A DNA stretch of 63,827 nucleotides, filler included, from Collodictyon triciliatum (GCA_043381765.1; 4 parts of 4 records of this genome joined end to end with filler, not necessarily neighbours in it); one strand, 5' to 3'; positions 32,205 to 48,950 are shown, numbered from the whole stretch's first letter. Notes: generated by a model not told the origin, from the sequence alone. Made by a program: numbers and translations.

Positions 32205-33162
32205 CGCCATCTGCCCTTGCTGGCGCAGAAAAGATGTCTCACCCGCGATGCACCCTGACGTTCTGTTGCCTTGCCAAACACATAAGTCTTAGCACATTCC
32301 AAAAAAACAAAAAACAAAAAACGCCAAACCAAATCCTCGTCGACCCTCGTGCGCTTCTGTAGATCGAATAAATTGCACCACCGTTTGTTTGTTTTGTTCG
32401 TTAGATTATTTGTTTGTTTGTTTGTTTGTTTTGTTTGTTTTGTTTGTTTGATCTATTCTATACCTCGCAATGTGAATAAATGTGGTGATCACGCTGAGAG
32501 CCGCACATGAGAGGAACAAACAAAAAAAAACACCATGAACAAGAAAAATAAAAGTATCTTATGCTGAGAAAATGATAAACACACTGGCAGAGAGAAAAGA
32601 ACACATTCTCCAGAAAATAACATTATTAAACTGGCGTTCTTTCCTTCTTCTTCCAACCCGCTACATTATGAAGCGGAAAAAAAGCAAGTAAGCAGGGAAG
32701 CAAGCGATTGGAAAGAGCGATTCTGAGAAGGCCGACTCAGTCAATCCAGAGAGCGAAAAAGGTCACTTGACCACGTCCCGTACAACACAGGTTATGCACC
32801 GAGACACACCGACGATCAAGACGCCAGCTACCACCGACCTGTGAGTACAACAACCTACTAATAAGACGGAGCGAGCTCTTTGAAACGAATAAAAATTAAT
32901 AATAATGATAATAATAATAATACTAATAATAATAACAACAATAATATTAATATTAATAATATTAATATTAATAGTAATAAAAGGTAATAAAAAAGGCTTC
33001 GGGCTCAAGATCAGTATGAATATAATGCTCAGTATTGGTTGCTCTGATTCATTAATCCGTTTCTTTTTTCTTTTTCATTTTTCGTTTTCTTTTCGGTCTC
33101 ATTTAGCCTGTAAATGGATAAACTTCATTGCAAAGGTTGTGACGAACGTGGTTTTATCCCTT

Positions 33163-33690
33163 TCAAGGCACAATACTATTTATACAACGAAAGTGCACTC
33201 ATATATACAGCTTTATTGCACAGACAACCATCAAATTAAATCTGAGTTGACGAAAGCAGGAGCTTAGATGAATCCAAGAAGCAATCTGAATAATATAATA
33301 GTATGATTAGTATGTATAGAAAGGTTAAATTACTTAATAATCTAATTCTATTCATATAATCAATTTGTTTTTTAATTTTCATTAATGTAATATTATCACT
33401 AAAATTCAAAAAATGCAAACAAAACCCTTGCGTTGATACAGACAGAAATCACCCTATAAACCTGCCACCAAACATGCATTTCAAAAAAGCATACCATCCA
33501 CACTTGTAGCGGTAATCATGTTGTTTGGAGGCGATATGTTGACTTTCAGTCGCAATGGCTATAAGGCTGCCCTTTCGAACTCGCCGAATGAGCTCTCAGC
33601 GTTATGTCTCAAATCACTTATAAAAAACTTTGTGTGTCTGTTTGCCACAAAGCGCACATTTCGAGGGTCTCGGTAGATGCTTAATTATAC
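33163..33690 (-). pseudogene. Degenerate 2-exon cargo gene inside element copy 1 (CxxC-containing, unknown family)
   Basis: KCALCGKQTHKVF...HDYRYKCGWYAFLKCMFGGRF..TQG|LLLGF, joined in frame by a 140-nt GT-AG intron (33286-33425). Several stops. Confidence 0.5.
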
Positions 33691-33808
33691 ATAAATTGAT
33701 TTTGTGCAGTTTTTATATATATTTATTAGATTGACTGATTGACTTAAGTTTTATTAAATTGAAAACTCGGTAGTTTTCTAAAGGAAAAAGTAAAACAAAG
33801 ACTTTCAG

Positions 33809-35758
33809 ATGAAGAAAAGAAAAAGTCTTGAGTCTGAGAAACTAAAGTCTGTAAAATCAGACTATCGAAGTATGAAAACATATCTAAAGTCGATTGTAAA
33901 GAATGCGGATGACTATTAAAAAATCAATGATACGGTTTTGTTGTGTCATAATTTGGTTACCGACACTTATCTGTTTGCAACATGTTACATATTGAAATCA
34001 CAGCAGCTCCCAACAATCGATGAAATGTTTTTTTTTGTACGCTTTAAAGACAATCGGAGTAGTTTCACAAGATAGACCCGCAAGTTTTAAAAAAATCCAG
34101 AAATGAGTAAAGACATGACTTTTTATCTTCATGATTTTCTATTCCTTTTGACCCGAGAAGAACGCTTTCTGTTGGTTGGACTATCTCATGTGTTATCGTA
34201 CTTGGCAAAGCAAATATAACAGCTTATCATAATAACATTAAGGAGCATTTTGTCAAGAGGTTACTGCGCTTTATAAATCAAACAGCTCCTAAAGATGAAG
34301 GATACCACGGGAGTTTTTAAAAAGGCAGAGTTACGAGGTTAAAAAAAAAGCCATATTCAAGAAACTCGAAATACCAGAACAAGACAAAGAAAGGGTTATA
34401 ATACATATGCATCATATCATTCCCAGCGATATTGTAAAAGGTGTCGAATATGACGTCAAAGTGAATCCAAGTAAGTACACTTCATGCCTGATTTACATGA
34501 ATCGTATTTTTGAGGACAGTGGAACCAAACTGTTTCAACCAATCTCTATAAGAGCCAACAATATACCTTGTCATATTAATCTAGATACTGCATGTTTGAT
34601 AGGTCTACTAATATCATCTGGAAAAAAAAATTTATAAAAGACGAATATATCAGGATGCAAAGAGACCCTATGGGATGACTTCTTTGAAATGAAAAAGAGT
34701 GTCTTTAATCAATGAGAATACAATTTTAAATGCATGATACAAACAAACAGCTTGGCGGTGTCATTATTGTTCGAAAAGAAAGTCATTTCAAATTCGAAAT
34801 TCAAAAATAATAATAAAAAAAAAAACCAAGAATATCTTTATATAGATGAACTTTCCGAAGGGCAGTTACCTTTATTAGCGAAAAAAAATAAATAGTTGGA
34901 GTGGACGCAAGCAAGTTTAATTTGGTTTGCATAGTGGGTGAGACAGGTAAGAAATTACGTTACACGGCTCACCAAAGAAGACATGATAGCAAATCTCTTA
35001 AAAATCACCAACTACTCATGCGCAAGAAAAAAAAAGAAAAGTACAATAATTCAGGGATATACATGACAACATGTTTACAAAGCGCAGTTTCTTTTGGTCA
35101 AATGACTTTTGAAGAGAATCGGCAGTTTGAGACATCAAGAGTATCTTTAATCGATTTAGAGACAGAACTGAGTAAACATAATTCACGCGCGGTCGATTAT
35201 GAAAAATTTCGAAAATATGTATCTATGAAATCAAGATTCCAGATAGAATTTCCAGATTTTATGAATAAGTAGCTTTTCGAAAGATGAGATGGGGACAGTA
35301 TGTTAATAGAAAAAGAAGTGAACAATTGTTTATGGACCGAATCGAAAAGACATTTGGCAAGGATGTTGTACTGGCGTATGTAGACTGTAGCAGAAAATCT
35401 CGGATGAACCATTTAATACCAACAATCGGAGGAGGATTACGAAAAATACTACCCAAACGTTTTGAACCAGTTAGTGTAGATGAATTTAGAACCTCCAAGA
35501 TGTGCTGCAACTGCGAAAAATAATTGGAATGTATGAAACTGAAAGGAAATTCAAAAAAAAAGTGCATAGATATCTCATATTTAAAGAATGCAATCGCTCA
35601 GAAAGCAAACTGCATTCTTGATAAGGGACTTTAACAGCGCTAAAGATATACTCAACAAAGTTCTTTTAATCCTTCAAAAAAAAAAACATACACCTCTCTC
35701 TAAAAAACAGGCTGTTGGGTCTTTCCTGGCAGCCTTCGCCACTGCACGGCCTTTGTGA
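33809..35758 (+). pseudogene. Fanzor1 (eukaryotic TnpB/Cas12-related RNA-guided endonuclease) pseudogene, copy 1
   Basis: N-terminal MKTYLKSIVKN..INDTVLLCHNLVTDTYLF, RuvC-I IVGVDASKFNLV (~34892-34930), KLRYTAHQRRHDS, RuvC-II/Zn VDEFRTSKMCCNCEK (~35476-35520) and RuvC-III IRDFNSAKDIL (35621-35653). Intronless, with multiple stops and frameshifts. Confidence 0.9.
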
Positions 35759-35845
35759 AAAAAGTGGCGAGACCTTGGATACTAACGCACCAGGTTTACC
35801 AAACTTTCGATGGTATAACCCTTCTAGCATATTACAAACTTAAAC
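35705..35845 (+). ncRNA. Putative Fanzor omegaRNA scaffold plus flank-derived guide, copy 1
   Basis: Stems 35710-19/35725-34, 35736-43/35763-70 (inner 35745-49/35753-57), ~35770-78/35790-97 and 35797-801/35811-15. They overlap the Fanzor 3' end and abut the element end. Boundaries approximate. Confidence 0.7.
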
Positions 35846-36251
35846 CCAACCCTCTTCCCCTGTTGTCATATCGTCGCCTGCACTTTTATTTTCCAGATAA
35901 GGAAAACTCGTCACAATGTGTCATCATTTTATTGACTGAATTCTTTGAATCACGCAGAACATGTGCCGAGCCACACACAAAGCATCAGTTCGATGCTGTA
36001 AGCGATTCCCTCGAACTCGCAAACACTCTGTCCACTGCCAGACACATGCTGACTCAAAGACCCACAAAGCCCAGTTCTCCCTCTTTTTTTCTTTCCTTTT
36101 TTTTTTTTTTTTTTTTTTAAAAAAAAAACTCTCTTTCCTTTTCTTCACTCTCATTCCATTCCTTTTTTTTTTTTTTTTTTTTTTAAAAAAAAAACACTAT
36201 ATTATTGTTTCGTTATCTTGAAACTGATCAAAGTGCGACAGGTCTCAACCC

Positions 36252-39200
36252 ATGGGCGACTTCAGCGTGCTTCTCTCACTGAAGCCACAGACCTTGAATG
36301 AAAACTTCTTTGTGTGCGCAACCGCAGAGCAGTTGATCGAAGCCACGTACCTGGACTTTCAGTGGAAAAAGATTTCTCTGCTGCACGCCTCCATCGGAAT
36401 GCTATCGAACTTGAGAGAGCTAAACCTCTCAAAGAACGAAGTTTATATTGTTATTTCTAATAACTTTGCAGTATATGTGTCACCCAGCTTCCCAGTCTCT
36501 CCCTCTCCTTCTCTGCTTTTTTTTGATTCCTTTTTTTCTTATCGTAAAACAACTCCTCTCTTCAAGTTAATCACAGTCCCAGACTCTGTTTCTGCACTGC
36601 AAAACCTAATCTGCTGGATCTTGGACACAAACAAAGTATTCATATCTTCAATCACCGGATATAATATGCTATATTCAATTACTTTTACCCTATCGATAGC
36701 CGTCTATACAAGTCGACTAATTTTTTTTATTGATTTTTCTCCTAATTCTTTACATAGACTAATCTATTGCTACTTTGATACCCCTAGCTCACTGGACTGC
36801 CTATCACAATTTCGAAGCTAGTTCATCTGACTTATCTCTCCTTGCATGACAATCACGTACCATTTTCTATTTTATAAAGTCGCTTATTTACCCCCCTTCT
36901 CTTCATGAGGGTCATTGAAACTCATTCATAGAATTTTCCACAAACACTATGGTGTATATACTTATTAAAATCGAAACTGTGCAGCTGTCAGCCCTTCCGG
37001 ATGCTTTCCAAGACATGACGAATCTGAATGTGCTGAACGTGTCTCGCAATCAAGTATTTCTCCAAAGAGATCATCCCTGCTAGATTTCCCACAACACCTA
37101 TTCCCTTCAATCCGTCTTGGTGGATGTGTGCGTCCCTTACCCTCATGCCTATTTCCAAACATCTTTGCAGATTGTCAGTTTGCCTCAGACCATATCTTGC
37201 CTAGTTGCACTCCGCGATTTACTCCTGTCAAACAACAAGGTGTCTCATCAATAACACAATTCAATTCCTGCCTATTTTGAAAGGGTCTTTGGTTTACTTT
37301 CAAATCACTCTAACATGTGTCTTGCCTATCCTCGATGATTTCTTTAGTTGACTCTGCTGCCGTTTGCTATAAGCTGCCTCACCAACCTATCTGGGTTCAG
37401 TGCACAGCACAACCAAGTTTGTCCATTATTTTCTTGCCTTATTCGACACCATGAATATATTTTGATTTCAAACTATCACCAGTTCATGCACATCCTTATA
37501 TAATGGAATTTTAACAATTTTTCTTTTAAAAAAATATAATCAAGTTATCCGTCCTACCCTATACCATCGGGCAACTGACTTCCCTTCGTGAATTCATTCT
37601 GGGTTCTCCATCATCACCAAACGAGCCGCCATCAAACTATGTACTCTTATCCATGAAATCCAAACTTGTGTACAATACGAAAGCATACAGTCAGAAATAT
37701 ATTGACATACTAATCTTTTCCTCTTTTCCCTTTTTTTTTTCTATTTTCCCTCGTACCCCCTCCCTCATGTATATTTATATTTCCTCTCCCATGGCGGTAG
37801 ATTATTAAGCTACCTCTGTCAATTGCAAACCTAAGTAAACTGGAGCGGCTTGAAATATCAGGTTTACCGCTTGAGTTTCCAAAGAGCGATATAGTCCAAT
37901 TAGGGACAAAGGGTATGATGAATTACATAGCCAACTTCTCCAAGGAAGAAAAACACCTCAATTACATCCGCCTGATTTTCATTGGCGACGAGGCGACGGG
38001 GAAGACTACCATCATCAACAACCTTGTTCTCAACACAATTCGCTTCGAAAGCCAATGTAGACCGGAATACATCCCAACCAACTCCATCGAAATATGCCGC
38101 GAATCGTACTACTTCCATCACGATGGCGATCACATATCCGCTTTCATTTGGGACTTCCCCGGAGACCCGGTCAACCGCGTCTACTACCCTTATTTCTTCT
38201 CCTCGGAGTCTCTAATAGTCTTCACTTGGGATGCCAGTAAAGACCCCGACTCATCTAACTTGCATGCCTGGGCATCGATGTTTTCAATGTTTGCGGTGGG
38301 CGCCCCAATCATTGTGGCGGGTACAAAGCTCGACCTTGTGTCGCGTGAGGACAGTCACCAATTGGAAGCTCGCCTTGAGACTGTAAAGAACACGTTCTCT
38401 TCCTTCCAATACTCTCTGAACATTATTGATTACATTTTCTTGAGCAATCTCACTGGAGAGCACCTCTTTAAGCTTCGCATGATGATGTCCAAATATGCCT
38501 TCCATTCTGTAACATCGGGAAGACTTTATCCAAACTACTTTCTTCAATACTCGCGCATAGCCGACGGCTTCACCAGATTTCAGCCCTCCCCTATCGCCTC
38601 CATTCAAGAGATGGAGCGCAACCTCGCGATGTTCCATCCCAGCATGAGCCTTACTGATTGCCTGGAAAAGCTTCACGACCTGGGCATGCTTTTCTGGGTC
38701 GACATGGAGCATCTGCGCGAGACTGTCTATTGCCACGCACCCTATTTAATCCGTATCTTTTCTCAGATATTCTACTCTGGTCGCAGCAAATCAGACATGG
38801 GCTTCTATCCCACAGACGAGCTGCTGTCCAAGTTAGAAGACACCTTCCCGGGATATTCCGAGCTTGTCGTTTCAATCCTTCGCCGATTCCAACTCTCATT
38901 CCCAAACGTCCTAGGACAGTATGAAATATTCCCGTATCTCCTGGCTGAAGGAAACCCGCACCCGTCGATTTGGTCGTGGAGCCCCTTACCATCAGATCAT
39001 TCGTACTGCACGTGCGAATTGGAGTTTAATATGATGCCCGAGATTGCATACGCCTCCCTGCTATGTCGGCTCTACCCTGTTCTTCATCGTGACTATTCGT
39101 CCCTGACTGGAGTCACACACGAGTACCTGTCATCAAACATGTTTGTGTTCACGATCTCGGCAAATCGCAGAGCCCCGAACGAACCCACTTATCACGCCTG

Positions 39201-40694
39201 CCTTGTCCGAGGCGGGGCACAAAACAGGCTCTACATCTCGGTGCGCTCCACCAACGCAAAATATCCTTCCTTCGAGTGCATGAAACATCTCACGAACTTA
39301 ATCACCCGCTCGCTCTCTTACTTTAAGAACGTCTTGCTGCAAAGCCGTCGCCTGGTGTGTCCTTCATGCTCCTTGGTGGAACCAAACTTTGAGGCGTGTG
39401 GCAGAGTCACGCTGGATGGAATCAATGTAGGAGATGAGGGCACAATCATGTGTGCCAAAGAGACCCGTTCCTTTAAGGTGGAGGAGTGGATGGAAGGACT
39501 CCGTAATCGCCACAGTCTATCTGCACCGGTGGCCAAGCCAGTTCGTGCGCGGTCTCTTAGCGAGGGCTCTGTTTTGCCGCAGGATGAGGAGACTGAGAAT
39601 TCGCATCTTTTCGTGCCCTCCGTCCTTCAGATAGAGCGTTCACCAACACCAGAAAATCCTCGTGATTTCGCGGTCACTTTCCACATCCTGTGCGACCGCC
39701 CAGAAGGCCCGCATCGATGCGCTGCGTCCGCCACCGGTATTCGCGTCTCTTGCTCGAGGATTCTGGCACAACCGAAGGTATTGGACTACTTCCTGCGCCT
39801 ATGGAAGCCAAAGGTTTCTGAGATGAAACTGGACGAGTACCGAAATGTGAGTGAGGCCGACTTGGCCACATGGCTTGTGCAGAAGGGCTCGGACCCGTTT
39901 CGTGTCCCGCTGACTCCGTCGTATGCGCAAGTCCTTGCCTTGATTGACCCGCAGGCAGAATGGCGGCTCCATTTGCAGTCGAGTCCCTTGCACGACAATC
40001 ATCCACGGTATCTCTGCAAACACTGCAACTATCTTGCGCAGCAAGGCTGGAGCAGCTACACGGCTCACACATCGACGTCCTTGTCTGGGTACATGCTCTA
40101 TCGCCACGAGGCCTTCTATAAGTTGTGGGAGCGCCGCTATTTTGTCCTGGACCACGAAAAGAAGGCCCTTGTTCGCTATCATGATGCCACAAAAACGTAT
40201 CAGAGCGGGGTCATTCGCCTGAATGGCCATTTCGAGGTTTTTGGCTGATATCTTTATTTTTATCTGTTTTTGTGATATTATTTTTATTTTTCATTATTTA
40301 TTTATTTCCAGCGATAACAGTAAAAGAAAGAAAGAAAGAAAGGTGAATACTTGCTCAGGCTCTGACTCATCACGATTCAATATATTTCCCTTATTAGATT
40401 GGCTCTCAGTCCTTCGGAGACGACATGGCTGGTTTTTACATACACGTTGGCAGAACAAAGTATCAGTTCAAGGTTTGAGTGCATCCTTGTTTCTTTGTTT
40501 CTTTTGTTTTATTTACACCCACTATCCATTTGATTATGCAGATGATAGGAGGGGAATGTGCACAGTCTAATCTATTCAACTCCAAAGCGATTCGGCAAAC
40601 CACTCACATCAAAAGTTTTTTTTATAATGCAACACAGGCTAAAACCGCGACAGAGCGCGACGCGTGGCTGGTGAACATCCAAAAGTGCCGATAA
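36252..40694 (+). CDS. Roco-family protein: LRR - ROC GTPase - COR - PH, no kinase domain seen
   Basis: One-repeat-per-exon LRRs (LSNLRELNLSKNE, MTNLNVLNVSRNQ, LVALRDLLLSNNK). ROC LIFIGDEATGKTTII, IWDFPG and IIVAGTKLDL. COR-like LHDLGMLFW, RFQLSF and FPYLL. PH SGYMLYR..FYKLWERRYFVLD...AKTATERDAWLVNI. Confidence 0.88.
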
Positions 40695-44389: not shown

Positions 44390-47300
44390 TCATTCATCTG
44401 TGTATTCTGACTCGATGTCTTCATCAACCTCAACGGTCGATTCTGTTGATTCGGTGAGCACATCTAGAGAAGAAGAAAAAATAAAACGGATATTGTTTCT
44501 CATTAGAAGCCACAAAGGTGTATCATATGAAGTAAGTCTATGGAGGAAAAACATTACAATCTCCAGCATACCAAGTTTCTTTCTCCCACGAGAGTCGACA
44601 GAGTCCGAGCTATTGTCCAGTTTGCTGGTATTTGACGACTGTGGGGCTCGGTTATGCACACTTCGATGTGCTTGAATATGACCGACAGGAGACTGATTAT
44701 CATCGTCTGACTCTAAACCTGCCAATCGATCTTTCACTTCCTTTTTCTTGGATAGCGCAGTTGCCTGCAACTCTGGGGCATTATCATCATCACTATCATT
44801 GTACGCAAAGTGGTCTGCAGACCTTCCAAGGGTCCCTTCATCTTCATCATCCCATTCTTCTTCATCATACTCTGATCCTTGAGTAGGAGTGTGAATTGTA
44901 TCAGTTTTGAGGGGTGAGGATGCCTTCATCTTGGAAGGGTCAAGTGCGGGAGCAGGTTTGGCCCCAAGAAAAGCAGTTGTCGAAGGCTGGATGGAAGTTA
45001 GAGGCTTCTCTGTATTCGATGCTGCTCCGCCCACATCAACCTTCAGCCCACCCAACTTGCCGATAGCCGGGAGAGATGCTGAGTTTAACGGACTTGGCGT
45101 TTGGATAGCCGGAAGAGATTTTGAGTTGGAGAGCGGAGGTGGTGGGTTTCGCACCGAAGGGTTCACAGGGTTGAGATTTGATGATGTGCGATTTAATGGC
45201 GTTCGGGAGGCCACTGCTGACGGATTAAACATGTCCAATCCTGAAACGTTAGCATCTTCTGTTTCTTGACTGGATTCTTCGTATGCAGACGAAGTCTCTT
45301 CAGTCCTGCTTGCCGTTTTTGTTGGGGATGAGTCAAACTCATCAGAAAACTCATCATCCTCAGGTAAGTTGTGTTTTCCTGTTTGTGAGGGAATCGTGTG
45401 TGCATTTTGCCTCGACAAACTTCTTAATTGGCTCATTCTCGAACTCGGCTGGTAAGAGTAAGGTGCTGGATTAGTGGTTTGCGATGGGGCAATTTGCTTT
45501 CCCTTTGCAAATGGGGATGACGATTCTGTTTCCTGTGACATAGTGTCTTCAGTCATCATATCATCTTCACCTTCATCGCCGTCTTCTTCGTCTTCGTCAA
45601 CAGAAAATTCTTCATCTGCAGTCGTGTTTTTATGGAATGAGCCGCTGGTCTGTGGGATGGATGAAGGTTGAGACGAATTGGGTGGATTGCTTGAAAGGCT
45701 CTTTGATTGCATACTTTGAACTGACAGGCTAGGCAATTGTCTGGATGATGACCCTATTGGAGCAAGTTGAGGTGGTGCGAGAGATATCCCCTTCTGAGGG
45801 TTATAATCTCCTAAACTCCATTGTAAAGGGTTAGATTTATTAATTGGTTGATTTGATGCAAAGTTTAGGTGGTTAGTTCCATCTTCATCATCAAAGCTCA
45901 CATCTTCCTCTTCTCCGTCTTCTCCGTCTTCTCCGTCTTCTCCCTCTTCATCAACAAATTCTTCCTCATCTTCATCCTCGTATCGAGTGTGCGCATTTGG
46001 ATAGGTAGATTTTTTCGTTGAAGAGGATATGTCTGGTTTACTAGATGAAGGTTGATAAGAGGCTTGGAAGCTGTTTCTACTTGGATTGCTATATGAATTG
46101 ATCTCATGTTTTGATAGATGCCCGCTAGTATCGAAGCGACTGGATTGATGAACAAGCACAGGGTTGATGGTGTCTTCCTCGTCATCTGTGAGCCCAATTT
46201 CTTCTTCCTCAGAGAAGGTTCCTTCATCAGGTTCTTCTTCATCATCTTCTTCCGTAAGACTCTCGTACATCGACTTCGGTGTGTTTACAACTGCCGTTGA
46301 ATCAGGTCTTGCCTCGGTGCTATTGTTCTTTACATATAGGTTGTATATTAGCTCCTGGAAGATGTTGCTGAATATTTTTTAAGCTCAATTCACATAACAG
46401 TGTCTTACTTTCACTCTGATATGATTTATTCATTAATTATTATCAATATCTTCAGAGGAAAAAAGAGCACATTTCTATAAAAATAACACGAAGAAAAAAG
46501 AATATGAATACCTTATTAATTGACGGTTGTAGCTTTTCGTGCATGTTCGGCGATTTCAGCGGGTTTGGCAATGTGATTGTGTTTTGCTGTTTCTCAGCCG
46601 CGGTTTTCTCTATTTTAGAATCTGATTTGGACTGAAGAGAGGAGGGAGGAACAGGAGACGTAAGAGGGTCTAATTTTACACACGAATATGGAGATTCGGG
46701 TGGACTTGTGCAAACTGATGATTGGAGCGAAGAACTGGACGGAGTTGGTGGAGATGGTTGTATGGACTGTGGTGGTGCTGCTTTTGAGATGGGCACATCA
46801 TTAGAGACATCAGTAGAAGGCGTATTTGATTGGGAGGCGGAGTTATTGGTTACTGTCGGAGTTGCCTTGGTACTAGCAATTACATTAGTATTTGTTGTCG
46901 TGGGAACTAGAGATGCTGATGCTGTTTCAGATTTTAGGGCTGCAACTGCTGGTGTAGTTGATGTTATTGTCGTTACTGTTGCTGAAACCGCAGGGTTTGG
47001 AGCTATGTTGGCGGTGTTTGCTGTTGTAGCTGCTGGTGTGGATGTTGTTGCTGGAGCTGCAGGTTTCGTTGCCGGATTAGTGGTACTTGCTGTTGTAGCT
47101 GCTGGTGTGGATGTTGTTGCTGGAGCTGCAGGTTTCGTTGCCGGATTAGTGGTACTTGTTGTTGTAGCTGCTGGTGTGGATGTTGTTGCTGGAACCGCAG
47201 GTTTTGGGGCTGTGGATGATGTTGGAGTTGTTGGCGGTGTGGATTTTGTTGCTGGAACCGCAGGTTTTGGAGCTGTACTGGCAGTGGTTGCTGTTGTAGC

Positions 47301-48950
47301 TGCTGGTGTGGGTGTTGTTGCTGGAACCGCAGGTTTTGGGGCTGTGGATGATGTTGGAGTTGTTGGCGGTGTGGATTTTGTTGCTGGAACCGCAGGTTTT
47401 GGAGCTGGATTAGTAGAGCTCACTGTTGTGGACGCTGGTGTGGATGTTGTTGCTGGAGCTGCAGGTTTTGGAGCCGAATTAGTGGTGCTCGCCGTTGTGG
47501 ACGCTGGTGTGGATGTTGTTGCTGGAGCCGCAGGTTTTGGAGCAGCAGACGAGCTGGGAGATGATGGAGGTTGCGTTACTGTCGCTACAGGAGCCCCGTG
47601 TTTTGGAGCTGTACTGGCAGTGCTCACTGTTGTAGTTGCTGGTGTGGTTGTTGTTGCTGGAGCCACAGGTTTTGGAGCTGTATTAGTGATGCCCGCTGTT
47701 GTAGCTGCAGGTGTGGGTGCTGTTGCTGAGGCCGCAGGTTTTGGGGCTGTGGATGATGTTGGGATTGTTGGTGGTGTGGATGTTGTTGCTAGAGCCACAG
47801 GTTTTGGAGCTGTACTAGTGATACCCGCTGTTGTAGTTGCTGGTGTGGGTGTTGTTGCTGGAACCGCAGGTTTTGGAGTTGTACTGACAGTGGTCGATGT
47901 TACAGTTGCTGATGTGGATGCTGTTGCTGGAACCGCAGGTTTTGGAGCTGTATTAGTGATGCCCGCTGTTGTAGTTGCTACTGTGGGTGCTGATGCTGGA
48001 ACCACAGGTTTTGGAGCTGTGTTGGCGGTGGTCGATGTTACAGTTGCTGATGTGGATGCTGTTGCTGGAACCGCAGGTTTTGGAGCTGTGTTGGCGGTGC
48101 TCGCTGCCGCAGCCCCTGGCGAAGACGTCACAGTCGCTGGTGTTGTTGGTTTGGGTGCAGGGTTTGATAGATGTGTTGGTGCTGCGGCTGGAACAGCAGG
48201 CTTCAGTGGAGTTGCCGTTGAAGAGCTTACTGGGACAGACTGTGATGTTGTCGTAGTTACTGGAGTCCCAGTGGGTGCAGTTTTAGGAAGCGTATTGGTT
48301 GGGTTAGAAGTGGTGGGAATAGCAGAAGCAGGTTTTGCTGTGCTTGTATTTGATGCTTGTATTGAGCTGGGTTGTGTTAGTGGCATGGTTGATTTTTGAG
48401 AAACAAGTGTCGATGGCTGTTGCGGGTTGGTGGTTGGCTGTGCATTTAATACTGCAGGGTTTGAAGGTATGGAACCAGTAGAATTCGTGGATGAAAATGG
48501 ACCAGAGTTTGCAGTGAGCTTAGTTGCAGTAGCGACAGGGCTTGGAGAATCCTGTTGTTTATCAGGAGAGACTGGTAAAGATACTCCTTTCGGTGCTAAA
48601 TGGGTGCAATAGAAAGTTCATCAGATATCTGTAATTTTTTATACATATTTCTCATAAAATCGCTTAAAAATTGAGTGTACCATTCTGTCATCATGGTAAA
48701 AAAAAATATTAAAGGGTATCGTGCAGAGTTTTGTTTGTTTTGTTATGTTTTTGTTTGTTTGTTTGTTTGTTTGTTTGTTTGTTTGTTTGTTTGTTTGTTT
48801 GTTTGTTTGTTTGTTTGTTTGTTTGTTTGTTTGTTTGTTTGNNNNNNNNNNNNNNNNNNNNNNNNNNNNNNNNNNNNNNNNNNNNTTAATTAATTAANNN
48901 NNNNNNNNNNNNNNNNNNNNNNNNNNNNNNNNNNNNNNNNNAAAAAAAAA

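What the first reader, a model, noticed from the sequence alone, without database searches (positions are those of the whole stretch)
32452..35827. Compact Helitron-like element carrying a Fanzor1 RNA-guided nuclease, present twice in the window
Seen: 32452-35827 and 58266-61635 are colinear ~3.4 kb direct copies 26 kb apart with unrelated flanks. Each holds an intronless ~1.9 kb degenerate ORF with RuvC-I (IVGVD), LRYT..QRR, RuvC-II/Zn ribbon (DEFRTSKMCCNC...CKEC) and RuvC-III (RDFNSA.DI). Established: this motif order is diagnostic of TnpB-derived Fanzor1, which is known to ride in eukaryotic transposons including Helitrons. Inference: this is a family of non-autonomous rolling-circle elements with the layout cargo gene (-), Fanzor (+), omegaRNA. 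It may be undescribed in this host, and intact copies may exist elsewhere in the genome.
Basis: partly seen in the sequence, partly recalled or inferred. Interest (0 to 1): 0.92.

Follow-up and report, generated by a model that had tools for sequence, protein, structure and literature searches.

The report
Two dead Fanzor1 transposon copies
The window holds two decayed copies of a repeated 3.4 kb mobile element that once encoded a Fanzor1 RNA-guided nuclease and its guide-RNA scaffold; this is a known kind of element, both copies are broken, and the proposed Helitron identity is not shown.

Summary
32452-35827 and 58266-61635 are colinear direct copies, 85% identical over aligned bases, with unrelated flanks.

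Each copy carries an intronless Fanzor1 pseudogene of about 640 codons.
- Pieces hit solved Fanzor1 structures.
- A profile of the pieces finds 1468 relatives.
- The nearest intact relative, P0180, aligns over residues 1-642 of 648 at about 60% identity. Copy 1 shows 8 frameshifts and 5 stops; copy 2 shows 12 and 6.
- Two nonsense codons are shared, and substitutions show no codon-position bias. Both copies therefore descend from an already dead gene.

A covariance model of the relatives' 3' guide-RNA scaffold gives its best whole-window hit at copy 1's tail.

- **"Cargo gene (-)":** no homologue by any search.
- **Helitron:** the ends read TC...CTAG and there are no inverted repeats or target duplications. 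However, similarity runs about 10 nt past CTAG, the hairpin is weak, and no RepHel gene or whole genome was available.

The closest relatives ride in Tc1/mariner elements on giant-virus-like contigs.

Verdict: new member of a known kind; modest interest.

The parts
32452..35837 (+). Element copy 1. The left end is at TC 32452. The right end lies between CTAG 35827 and 35837.
58266..61647 (+). Element copy 2. The left end is at TC 58266. The right end lies between CTAG 61635 and 61647.
33809..35758 (+). Fanzor1 pseudogene, copy 1. It runs from the ATG at 33809 to the TGA at 35756, with 8 frameshifts and 5 in-frame stops against P0180.
   Evidence: PDB hits.
59631..61564 (+). Fanzor1 pseudogene, copy 2. 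The start codon is lost to a 4-nt insertion. It has 12 frameshifts and 6 in-frame stops against P0180.
   Evidence: PDB hits.
34904..34906 (+). RuvC-I aspartate of copy 1 (IVGVDASK). The copy 2 equivalent is at 60713-60715 (RGDTSK).
   Evidence: It aligns with the invariant D372 of 16 relatives.
35482..35514 (+). RuvC-II glutamate and first CxxC of the zinc ribbon in copy 1 (DEFRTSKMCCNC). In copy 2 the glutamate has become aspartate (VDDFRTSK).
   Evidence: It aligns with the invariant E530.
35521..35523 (+). In-frame TAA shared by both copies (61322-61324 in copy 2). Relatives have E or Q at this position.
34088..34090 (+). Second TAA shared by both copies (59913-59915 in copy 2). Other family members read A at 34088, which gives AAA.
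   Evidence: table 3.
35627..35629 (+). RuvC-III aspartate of copy 1 (IRDFNSA). Copy 2 has lost it (KRQFTST).
   Evidence: It aligns with the invariant D581.
35704..35817 (+). OmegaRNA-scaffold remnant of copy 1. Two adjacent hairpins (35709-35735 and 35736-35770) and a linker overlap the last codons and the stop.
61510..61625 (+). OmegaRNA-scaffold remnant of copy 2, more decayed than copy 1's.
32452..33808 (.). Left arm of copy 1 (58266-59630 in copy 2). It is 1.36 kb of unidentified sequence with microsatellites. One minus-strand frame at 33230-33715 is poor in stops but has no homologue.

Best explanation
These are two old, dead insertions of one multi-copy, transposase-less DNA transposon family of about 3.38 kb in a eukaryotic nuclear genome.

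Layout: a 1.36 kb unidentified left arm; then an intronless Fanzor1 gene of about 640 codons on the + strand; then the Fanzor guide-RNA (omegaRNA) scaffold, which overlaps the last codons and runs to the right end.

When intact (inferred from TnpB and Fanzor work, not shown here), the element would express Fanzor1 and an omegaRNA whose guide is the DNA just beyond the right end. The RNP would cut matching sites and so favour retention or spread of the element. Movement itself would depend on a transposase supplied in trans.

The two window copies share nonsense codons and have drifted neutrally since their split. They were therefore copied from an already broken gene, which means mobility did not need Fanzor in cis.

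The carrier superfamily is unresolved. My odds: rolling-circle (Helitron-like) about 0.35; a derivative of the Tc1/mariner carriers of the nearest relatives about 0.2; something else for the rest.
For: Fanzor1 identity:
- Copy 1 35269-35523 hits Parasitella Fanzor1 9cf0 (E 4.7e-7) and Spizellomyces Fanzor1 8gkh (E 0.016).
- Copy 2 59916-60218 hits Guillardia Fanzor1 9cer (E 5.8e-5) and 9cf0 (E 0.0064).
- A 259-position profile of five window pieces finds 1468 proteins at E<=1e-3. The best are P0001 (5e-68) and the full-length P0002 (2e-55).
- P0002 and P0180 hit only the three solved Fanzor1 proteins at E<=0.01 (9e-37 to 7e-16, and 2e-28 to 4e-23). No Fanzor2 or TnpB chain appears.
- Frameshift-aware alignment to P0180: copy 1 covers residues 1-642 of 648 with 377/633 identical; copy 2 has 374/630 identical.

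Dead since before the split:
- TAA at 35521/61322 and at 34088/59913 are shared.
- Third codon positions take 49 of 156 substitutions in three frame-constant segments.

OmegaRNA:
- In relatives L001 and L003-L006 the last 100 nt of the gene plus 50-55 nt downstream fold into 43 pairs, 7 of them with compensatory changes.
- Model R1 finds this at the Fanzor 3' end in 54 of 80 loci at E<=1e-3.
- With filters off over the whole window, the best of 5 hits is 35704-35844 (+), 17.9 bits, E 0.0089. Copy 2's tail ranks third.
- The broader model R2 again ranks copy 1's tail first of 10 and copy 2's tail third.
- RNA folding z-scores are -2.26 and -1.80.

Family and ends:
- 318 and 570 contigs of two runs lie on the element at 80-99% likeness.
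- No TIR: 88/500 and 234/500 shuffles reach the observed score.
- No transposase trace.
Against: - Pfam scans of the window's own pieces gave no Fanzor or TnpB family.
- The 126-aa RuvC-I piece hit no relevant solved structure.
- The first word-indexed search found nothing.
- The omegaRNA match is weak. With R2 the whole-window E-value is only 0.16, copy 2 scores 5.9-12 bits, and the 3' third of the model does not fit.
- The one 'compensatory' pair between the copies is two CpG transitions, so it is not evidence of selection.
- Nothing here shows expression. Both laid runs are contigs, and the RNA label of X2 is a guess.
- The left arm, 40% of the element, is unexplained.
Confidence: 0.85

Rival explanations
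1. The element is a non-autonomous Helitron, a rolling-circle element moved in trans by a RepHel protein, that captured a Fanzor1-omegaRNA module.
For: - Both copies begin with TC and carry CTAG (CTRR) where the strong similarity ends.
- There are no terminal inverted repeats, no target-site duplication, and no internal transposase.
- Copy 2 sits between T and T, an accepted Helitron target according to a passage of PMC10288648.
- A hairpin, GGTTTACC...GGTATAACC, ends 7 nt before CTAG in copy 1.
- Fanzor1 on non-autonomous Helitrons is documented, in passages of PMC3627910 and PMC10530073.
- Dead copies were still copied, as expected for mobilisation in trans.
Against: - Beyond CTAG, 8 of 10 bases still match between the copies. 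By my own estimate this has a chance of about 0.004, so CTAG may not be the terminus.
- Copy 1 is flanked by A...C, not A/T...T.
- The hairpin is AT-rich, reduced to 5 bp in copy 2, and no better than shuffles (z -1.0 and -0.6).
- The hairpins of the tail match the Fanzor omegaRNA model instead.
- TC plus CTRR within a few bases of a boundary carries little information.
- No RepHel is seen among window ORFs of 130 aa or more (not an exhaustive test).
- The nearest Fanzor1 relatives are on Tc1/mariner elements.
Confidence: 0.35
2. The element is a derivative of the Tc1/mariner-type carrier seen in the nearest relatives (transposase (-), small ORF, Fanzor1 (+), omegaRNA, 32-38 nt TIRs). Its transposase has been replaced or lost and its TIRs have eroded.
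For: - Relatives L003 and L001 are 3316 and 3330 bp from TIR to TIR. The Fanzor ATG lies 1377 nt from the left end in L001, against 1357 nt in copy 1.
- A DDE_3 ORF lies directly upstream on the opposite strand in 2 of 2 loci examined with Pfam.
- tblastn finds that transposase in 31 of 80 loci.
Against: - The left arm shows no trace of the transposase: tblastn to E 50, an HMM of 15 transposases with all scores negative, hhalign probability 0.24%, and Pfam on 9 read-through frames.
- The Fanzor gene beside it is still 60% identical to P0180, so equal decay cannot explain the loss.
- There is no TIR and no TA duplication.
- The 3' third of the omegaRNA model, which holds the right TIR in relatives, does not fit.
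Confidence: 0.2
3. The pair is a local segmental duplication of single-copy DNA rather than two transposition events.
For: The two copies are in direct orientation, only 25.8 kb apart, and share lesions.
Against: - The flanks are unrelated on both sides, right up to the same boundaries.
- Hundreds of contigs in two runs carry the sequence at 80-99% likeness, and cover stops at the element's right end.
Confidence: 0.03
4. The genes are alive: the stops are read through (TAA as sense) and the frameshifts are introns or assembly errors.
For: - Both shared stops are TAA.
- Many frameshifts sit in A or T runs, where assemblies err.
Against: - Copy 1 also has TGA and TAG in frame, and copy 2 has TAG.
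- There are 8 and 12 frameshifts, most of them private to one copy.
- Copy 2 has lost two of the three catalytic residues.
- Substitutions show no third-position excess.
- Host ORFs of 662-815 codons are open under the standard code.
Confidence: 0.02

Closest known systems
[quoted passage not shown] They are represented here by metagenome loci L001 and L003-L006.
   Same: - The same Fanzor1 clade: P0002 is the Fanzor of L001, and window copy 1 aligns over its residues 1-616.
- The gene is intronless.
- The total size is the same (3.3 against 3.4 kb), and the gene sits in the same position.
- The omegaRNA scaffold overlaps the gene's 3' end.
   Different: The window element has no DDE_3 transposase, no TIRs and no TA duplication. 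Its left arm is unrelated. It lies in a eukaryotic chromosome next to histone H1, kinesin and Roc-GTPase genes. Both copies are pseudogenes.
CRe-1, CRe-2 and CRe-3: non-autonomous Helitron2 elements carrying Fanzor1 in Chlamydomonas reinhardtii (Bao & Jurka 2013; Jiang et al. 2023, PMC10530073).
   Same: They are transposase-less carriers of a Fanzor1 gene with a conserved non-coding RNA at the 3' end. They are multi-copy and moved in trans.
   Different: - CRe genes have 5-10 exons, whereas this gene is intronless.
- CRe ends are Helitron2-type, with asymmetric TIRs and a 5' hairpin, and are matched to verified RepHel elements.
- Here no such features or partner were found, and the ends resemble Helitron1 (TC...CTAG) at best.
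Spu-1 / SpuFz1 of Spizellomyces punctatus (Saito et al. 2023, PMC10432273; PDB 8gkh).
   Same: - It is a Fanzor1 with the same domain order.
- It has no transposase inside the element.
[quoted passage not shown]
- It is multi-copy, with partial copies.
   Different: Spu-1 is about 2.1 kb with 30-nt inverted repeats and a conserved CA upstream. The window element is 3.4 kb with a 1.36 kb extra arm and no inverted repeats. Identity to SpuFz1 is low (window piece E 0.016).

Membership tests
Fanzor1 (eukaryotic TnpB-like RNA-guided nuclease) | The motif order D ... [TS][TS]xx-C4 zinc finger ... RD in the C-terminal half (RuvC-I D, RuvC-II E, zinc ribbon, RuvC-III D). | tested here: met
   - Copy 1: GVD(34904)ASK ... 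DE(35482)FRTSKMCCNC ... RD(35627)FNSA.
- Copy 2 keeps D, has E changed to D and D changed to Q, and keeps the second CxxC (CLICKEC).
- These positions align with the invariant D372, E530 and D581 of 16 relatives.
- The motif definition is from the abstract of PMC3627910.
Fanzor1 (eukaryotic TnpB-like RNA-guided nuclease) | Colinear full-length similarity to characterised Fanzor1 proteins rather than to Fanzor2 or TnpB. | tested here: met
   - Window pieces hit 9cf0, 8gkh and 9cer.
- The nearest full-length relatives, P0002 and P0180, hit only these three Fanzor1 proteins at E<=0.01.
- The window aligns to P0180 over residues 1-642 of 648.
Fanzor1 (eukaryotic TnpB-like RNA-guided nuclease) | A structured omegaRNA that overlaps the 3' end of the gene and reaches the element's right end. 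| tested here: met
   The support is weak and points to a remnant only.
- The models' best whole-window hit is at 35704-35844/35817 (+): R1 17.9 bits, E 0.0089; R2 17.3 bits, E 0.16.
- Copy 2's tail ranks third in both scans.
- The last third of the model does not fit.
Fanzor1 (eukaryotic TnpB-like RNA-guided nuclease) | An open reading frame able to give an active protein. | tested here: not met
   There are 8 frameshifts and 5 stops in copy 1, and 12 frameshifts and 6 stops in copy 2. These are pseudogene members of the family.
Fanzor1 (eukaryotic TnpB-like RNA-guided nuclease) | RNA-guided DNA cleavage. | not testable with these tools
   This needs biochemistry on an intact family member.
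Helitron (Helitron1 type) | 5'-TC and CTRR-3' termini. | tested here: inconclusive
However, 8 of 10 bases beyond CTAG still match between the copies. The feature definition is from passages of PMC3627910.
Helitron (Helitron1 type) | A stable hairpin just upstream of the 3' end. | tested here: inconclusive
   A 9-bp bulged, AT-rich stem is present in copy 1 and a 5-bp stem in copy 2. ssDNA folds give z -1.02 and -0.64, with 31/200 and 44/200 shuffles folding at least as well.
Helitron (Helitron1 type) | Insertion between A/T and T without target-site duplication. | tested here: inconclusive
   Copy 2 reads T|...|T, which fits. Copy 1 reads A|...|C, which does not fit at the 3' side. Neither copy has a TSD. 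The target rule is from a passage of PMC10288648.
Helitron (Helitron1 type) | An autonomous RepHel-encoding partner with the same termini. | not testable with these tools
   No genome is held. None of the 80 window ORFs of 130 aa or more looks like one (not scanned with profiles).
Tc1/mariner (IS630-Tc1-mariner, DDE_3) | A DDE transposase gene or its remains. | tested here: not met
   tblastn, a 15-sequence HMM, hhalign and Pfam all found no trace in either left arm.
Tc1/mariner (IS630-Tc1-mariner, DDE_3) | Terminal inverted repeats flanked by a TA duplication. | tested here: not met
   The best inverted match of the ends is reached by 88/500 shuffles for copy 1 and 234/500 for copy 2. There is no TA duplication at the boundaries.

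The most novel reading that the evidence does not exclude
The family is a canonical (TC...CTRR) non-autonomous Helitron of a freshwater eukaryote. It captured a whole intronless Fanzor1-omegaRNA module from the Tc1/mariner lineage that circulates in giant viruses. It keeps live, expressed copies elsewhere in the genome. That would be a documented hand-over of an RNA-guided nuclease module between transposon superfamilies, and from virus to host.
Probability: 0.15. Interest if true: 0.55.

Novelty: new member of a known kind. Interest (0 to 1): 0.3.

Why it matters
Fanzor1 nucleases on transposase-less eukaryotic elements, Helitrons included, have been in print since 2013 and were shown to be RNA-guided in 2023. 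Two dead copies therefore add little by themselves.

Three points have modest value:
- The shared nonsense codons show directly that the element was still being copied after its nuclease gene was broken. Spread did not need Fanzor in cis.
- This chromosomal Fanzor1 belongs to a clade otherwise found here on mariner-type elements in giant-virus-like contigs, but it sits in a different, TIR-less carrier. This hints at module exchange between carriers.
- The guide-RNA covariance model built here recognises the scaffold in 54 of 80 related loci and could be reused to annotate such elements.

If intact copies exist in the source organism, they would be candidates for a compact eukaryotic genome editor, like other Fanzor1 proteins.

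Tried and rejected
- **Whole genome of the window:** none is held. Copy counts, a family consensus and a RepHel partner could not be sought.
- **Sequencing runs:** only two small-share holders were listed, and no RNA holder was listed. Both were laid. They are contigs, so they say nothing about expression, starts or ends.
- **Pfam on the window's own Fanzor pieces:** no relevant family.
- **PDB with the 126-aa RuvC-I piece:** nothing relevant.
- **Word-indexed search with the 84-aa piece, longer lengths:** none.
- **Tiling all 13 pseudogene pieces into one alignment:** MAFFT stacked unrelated pieces on each other. Only the five C-half pieces that tiled correctly were used.
- **Rfam at gathering thresholds over the whole window:** 0 matches.
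- **The search for related loci with the 16-sequence alignment:** A 7-sequence alignment was used instead.
- **Viral contigs with P0001:** no relative.
- **Left arm:**
  - Pfam on ORF pieces and on 9 read-through frames.
  - tblastn of 106 left-arm and tail pieces against 80 loci.
  - Relatives' transposases by tblastn, HMM and hhalign.
  - PDB profile search, best E 1.1.
  - Atlas, recognition 1663 and no usable hit.
  - Word-indexed search of proteins of 89-286 aa. Longer proteins were not searched for this query.
  - The stop-poor minus frame is matched by 442/2000 shuffles in copy 1 and 32/2000 in copy 2, for a region picked after the fact.
- **The 'compensatory' G-C to A-U change in hairpin 2 between the copies:** rejected as evidence of selection, because both changes are CpG transitions.
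- **Host identity:** the Atlas only placed the Roc-COR ORF in the ROCO/MFHAS1-like group. The organism remains unknown.
- **Earlier findings of this scan:** none for this genome or sequence.
- **Supplementary files:** those of the four papers were not seen. Tables listing Fanzor-transposon associations by species (Jiang et al. 2023, table S1) may already include this family.
Full report
**1. The observation**

The window is eukaryotic nuclear DNA of 63,827 bases with 1,262 N. It is rich in microsatellites and carries a linker-histone H1 ORF (57128-57676), a kinesin motor exon, a Roc GTPase ORF and a UBA domain.

BLASTN joins 32445-35837 to 58259-61647 in one plus/plus alignment of 3490 columns, 81.1% identical. 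Everything else shared by the two neighbourhoods is low-complexity sequence. That is 84.9% identity, with 41 indels and a transition-to-transversion count of 297:197. No third copy or fragment lies in the window.

The left end at TC is sharp. After CTAG at the right end, 8 of the next 10 bases still match once a 2-nt indel is allowed. By my own estimate the chance of that is about 0.004, so the right end lies somewhere in 35827-35837.

**2. The gene is Fanzor1**

Pfam saw nothing in the window's own fragments. One fragment found no relevant solved structure, and a word-indexed search found nothing.

Two separate fragments do hit solved Fanzor1 proteins, in the right order:
- 35269-35523 hits Parasitella Fz1 (E 4.7e-7) and Spizellomyces Fz1 (E 0.016) in their RuvC-II region.
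- 59916-60218 hits Guillardia Fz1 (E 5.8e-5) and Parasitella Fz1 (E 0.0064) in the REC region.

A profile of five tiled window pieces (A1, 259 positions) searched against 1.84 billion representatives gave 1468 proteins at E<=1e-3 and 20 at E<=1e-30.
- The full-length P0002 (634 aa) hits SpuFz1 over its whole length (9e-37), then PpFz1 and GtFz1, and nothing else at E<=0.01.
- Of 7 relatives scanned, 2 reach Pfam's Cas12f1-like_TNB cutoff, 4 fall below it and 1 has no hit.
- A search seeded with P0001 found P0180, an intact 648-aa protein much closer to the window. It also hits only the three Fanzor1 structures.

Frameshift-aware alignment to P0180 covers residues 1-642 in both copies.
- Copy 1: 377/633 identical, 8 frameshifts, 5 stops.
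- Copy 2: 374/630 identical, 12 frameshifts, 6 stops. With P0002 as guide the counts are 9 and 5 for copy 1, and 8 and 8 for copy 2.

The homology is continuous, so the gene is intronless. Copy 1 keeps the D/E/D triad. Copy 2 has E changed to D and D changed to Q.

**3. Both copies were dead before they separated**

- The TAA at 35521/61322 (E or Q in relatives) and the TAA at 34088/59913 are shared.
- Both copies are also shifted by +1 at the same T-run, near 34025/59853. A homopolymer could slip twice, so this is weaker evidence.
- Other family members read A at 34088, giving AAA. One contig lacks the three bases at 35522. These lesions are therefore not ancestral to the whole family.
- Substitutions between the copies are even across codon positions everywhere (all p>0.2). 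Third positions take 49 of 156 in three frame-constant Fanzor segments.

**4. Relatives and the guide RNA**

A pattern scan of metagenome contigs returned 80 loci, out of 151 confirmed.

In L001 and L003-L006 the end of the gene plus 50-55 nt downstream is conserved and then stops abruptly at ...GGGTGTAAA. RNAalifold gives 43 pairs, 7 of them with compensatory changes.

A covariance model of this region (R1) matches the 3' end of the Fanzor gene in 54 of 80 loci at E<=1e-3. The six loci behind the model, or identical to them, match by construction.

The default-filter scan did not report the window. With filters off:
- The best of 5 hits in the whole window is 35704-35844 (+), 17.9 bits, E 0.0089. 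The next hit scores 7.2 bits. The third is copy 2's tail at 61510-61625.
- A model built from all 58 matches (R2) again puts copy 1's tail first of 10 hits (17.3 bits, E 0.16) and copy 2's tail third.

The fit is two adjacent hairpins plus a linker overlapping the last codons. The last third of the model, which holds the right inverted repeat in relatives, does not fit. RNA folds of the tails give z -2.26 and -1.80. I read this as a decayed omegaRNA scaffold. The placement of the hits is stronger evidence than the E-values. The single double change that keeps a pair between the copies is two CpG transitions and proves nothing.

**5. What carries it**

In the relatives the carrier is Tc1/mariner.
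- A DDE_3 (plus HTH) ORF lies just upstream on the other strand in both loci examined, on contigs that also hold a viral-type mRNA capping enzyme and a ribonucleotide reductase.
- tblastn finds this transposase in 31 of 80 loci, many of which are too short to show it.
- An exact-seed search found inverted repeats of about 32 nt in 2 of 5 loci, giving elements of 3316 and 3330 bp.

The window element has the same size and gene position, but it lacks the mariner features.
- No trace of that transposase.
- No inverted repeats.
- No TA or other duplication.

The left 1.36 kb matches nothing. One minus-strand frame (33230-33715 / 59024-59512) has fewer stops than the others and keeps its register in both copies. 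Its 65% amino-acid identity is what neutral drift predicts, and its stop count is unremarkable in copy 1. The 'cargo gene' is therefore unsupported.

For Helitron, the evidence in favour is TC...CTAG, the absence of TIRs and TSDs, a T|T site for copy 2, and trans-mobilisation of dead copies. Against it are the match beyond CTAG, the A|C site of copy 1, and a weak AT-rich hairpin no better than shuffles. There is also no way to look for a RepHel partner. I put Helitron at about 0.35.

**6. Family size**

Contigs of two coded runs cover 29 of 30 bins of the stretch.
- X1, labelled a freshwater metagenome: 318 contigs, 14 of them at 99% or better.
- X2, 'organism A': 570 contigs, 52 at 99% or better and 213 below 90%.

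Nothing is laid beyond 35896. This shows a diverged multi-copy family. Depth across contigs cannot be read as copy number or expression.

**7. Comparison with the literature**

I read passages found by term search, and for PMC3627910 also the abstract.
- Fanzor associations include non-autonomous Helitron, hAT and EnSpm ends and autonomous Mariner/Tc1 (PMC10530073).
- Spu-1 elements have 30-nt inverted repeats, no transposase, and an omegaRNA in the roughly 80 nt after the stop codon (PMC10432273).

The window element is thus a new, dead member of a known kind. Supplementary tables that might already list it were not available.

**8. Verdict**

Fanzor1 and the omegaRNA remnant are supported. 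The Helitron identity is unproven and the cargo gene is unsupported. Interest is modest.

Noticed in passing
L001 3347-3503; L003 7797-7952; models R1 and R2: The Fanzor1 clade nearest the window has a well-supported 3' structured RNA: 43 pairs, 7 with compensatory changes in only 5 sequences. The covariance model finds it in 54 of 80 metagenome loci. It also gives extra hits away from any Fanzor gene (L061 13151-13246, E 4.6e-4; L059 5417-5532, E 0.047), which may be gene-less 'ghost' guide loci.
   Followed up: partly
L001 about 1250-1550 and the same region of L003-L006: Relatives carry a conserved small ORF of about 70 codons between the transposase and Fanzor. A repeated motif, TAGTAAGNNAACTAC, lies just before the start of both this ORF and Fanzor and looks like a shared promoter.
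   Followed up: no
window 32452-33808 compared with L001 174-1550: The distance from the left end to the Fanzor start is nearly the same in the window element (1357 nt) and in the mariner-type relatives (1377 nt), although the sequences are unrelated. This is unexplained.
   Followed up: partly
window 33044-33291: This part of the left arm has the highest summed contig depth in both laid runs (X1 170, X2 971, against roughly 100-400 over the Fanzor gene in X2). It may also occur in a shorter, more abundant repeat. Depth from contigs is a poor measure.
   Followed up: no
window 36228-40248 (+): An LRR-like ORF followed by an 815-codon open frame with a Roc GTPase domain (ROCO/MFHAS1-like by Atlas features) starts about 400 nt downstream of copy 1's right end, in the same orientation.
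   Followed up: partly
window 57128-57676 (+): A linker histone H1 ORF (Pfam Linker_histone, E 2.6e-21) ends about 590 nt upstream of copy 2.
   Followed up: partly
window 46825-48132: About 15 tandem units of 63-72 nt lie inside a 721-codon minus-strand ORF rich in T, P and A. It looks like a mucin-like repeat protein.
   Followed up: no
window 62600-63500; 32384-32451: A T-rich tract of nearly 1 kb lies about 1 kb downstream of copy 2. A (GTTT)n microsatellite abuts the left end of copy 1. Whether the element targets or seeds such tracts is unknown.
   Followed up: no
window 52200-53990: A 67% G+C island in a window of about 40% G+C holds long open frames on both strands, between two assembly gaps (N runs near 51.6-52.1 kb and 54.1-54.7 kb).
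   Followed up: no
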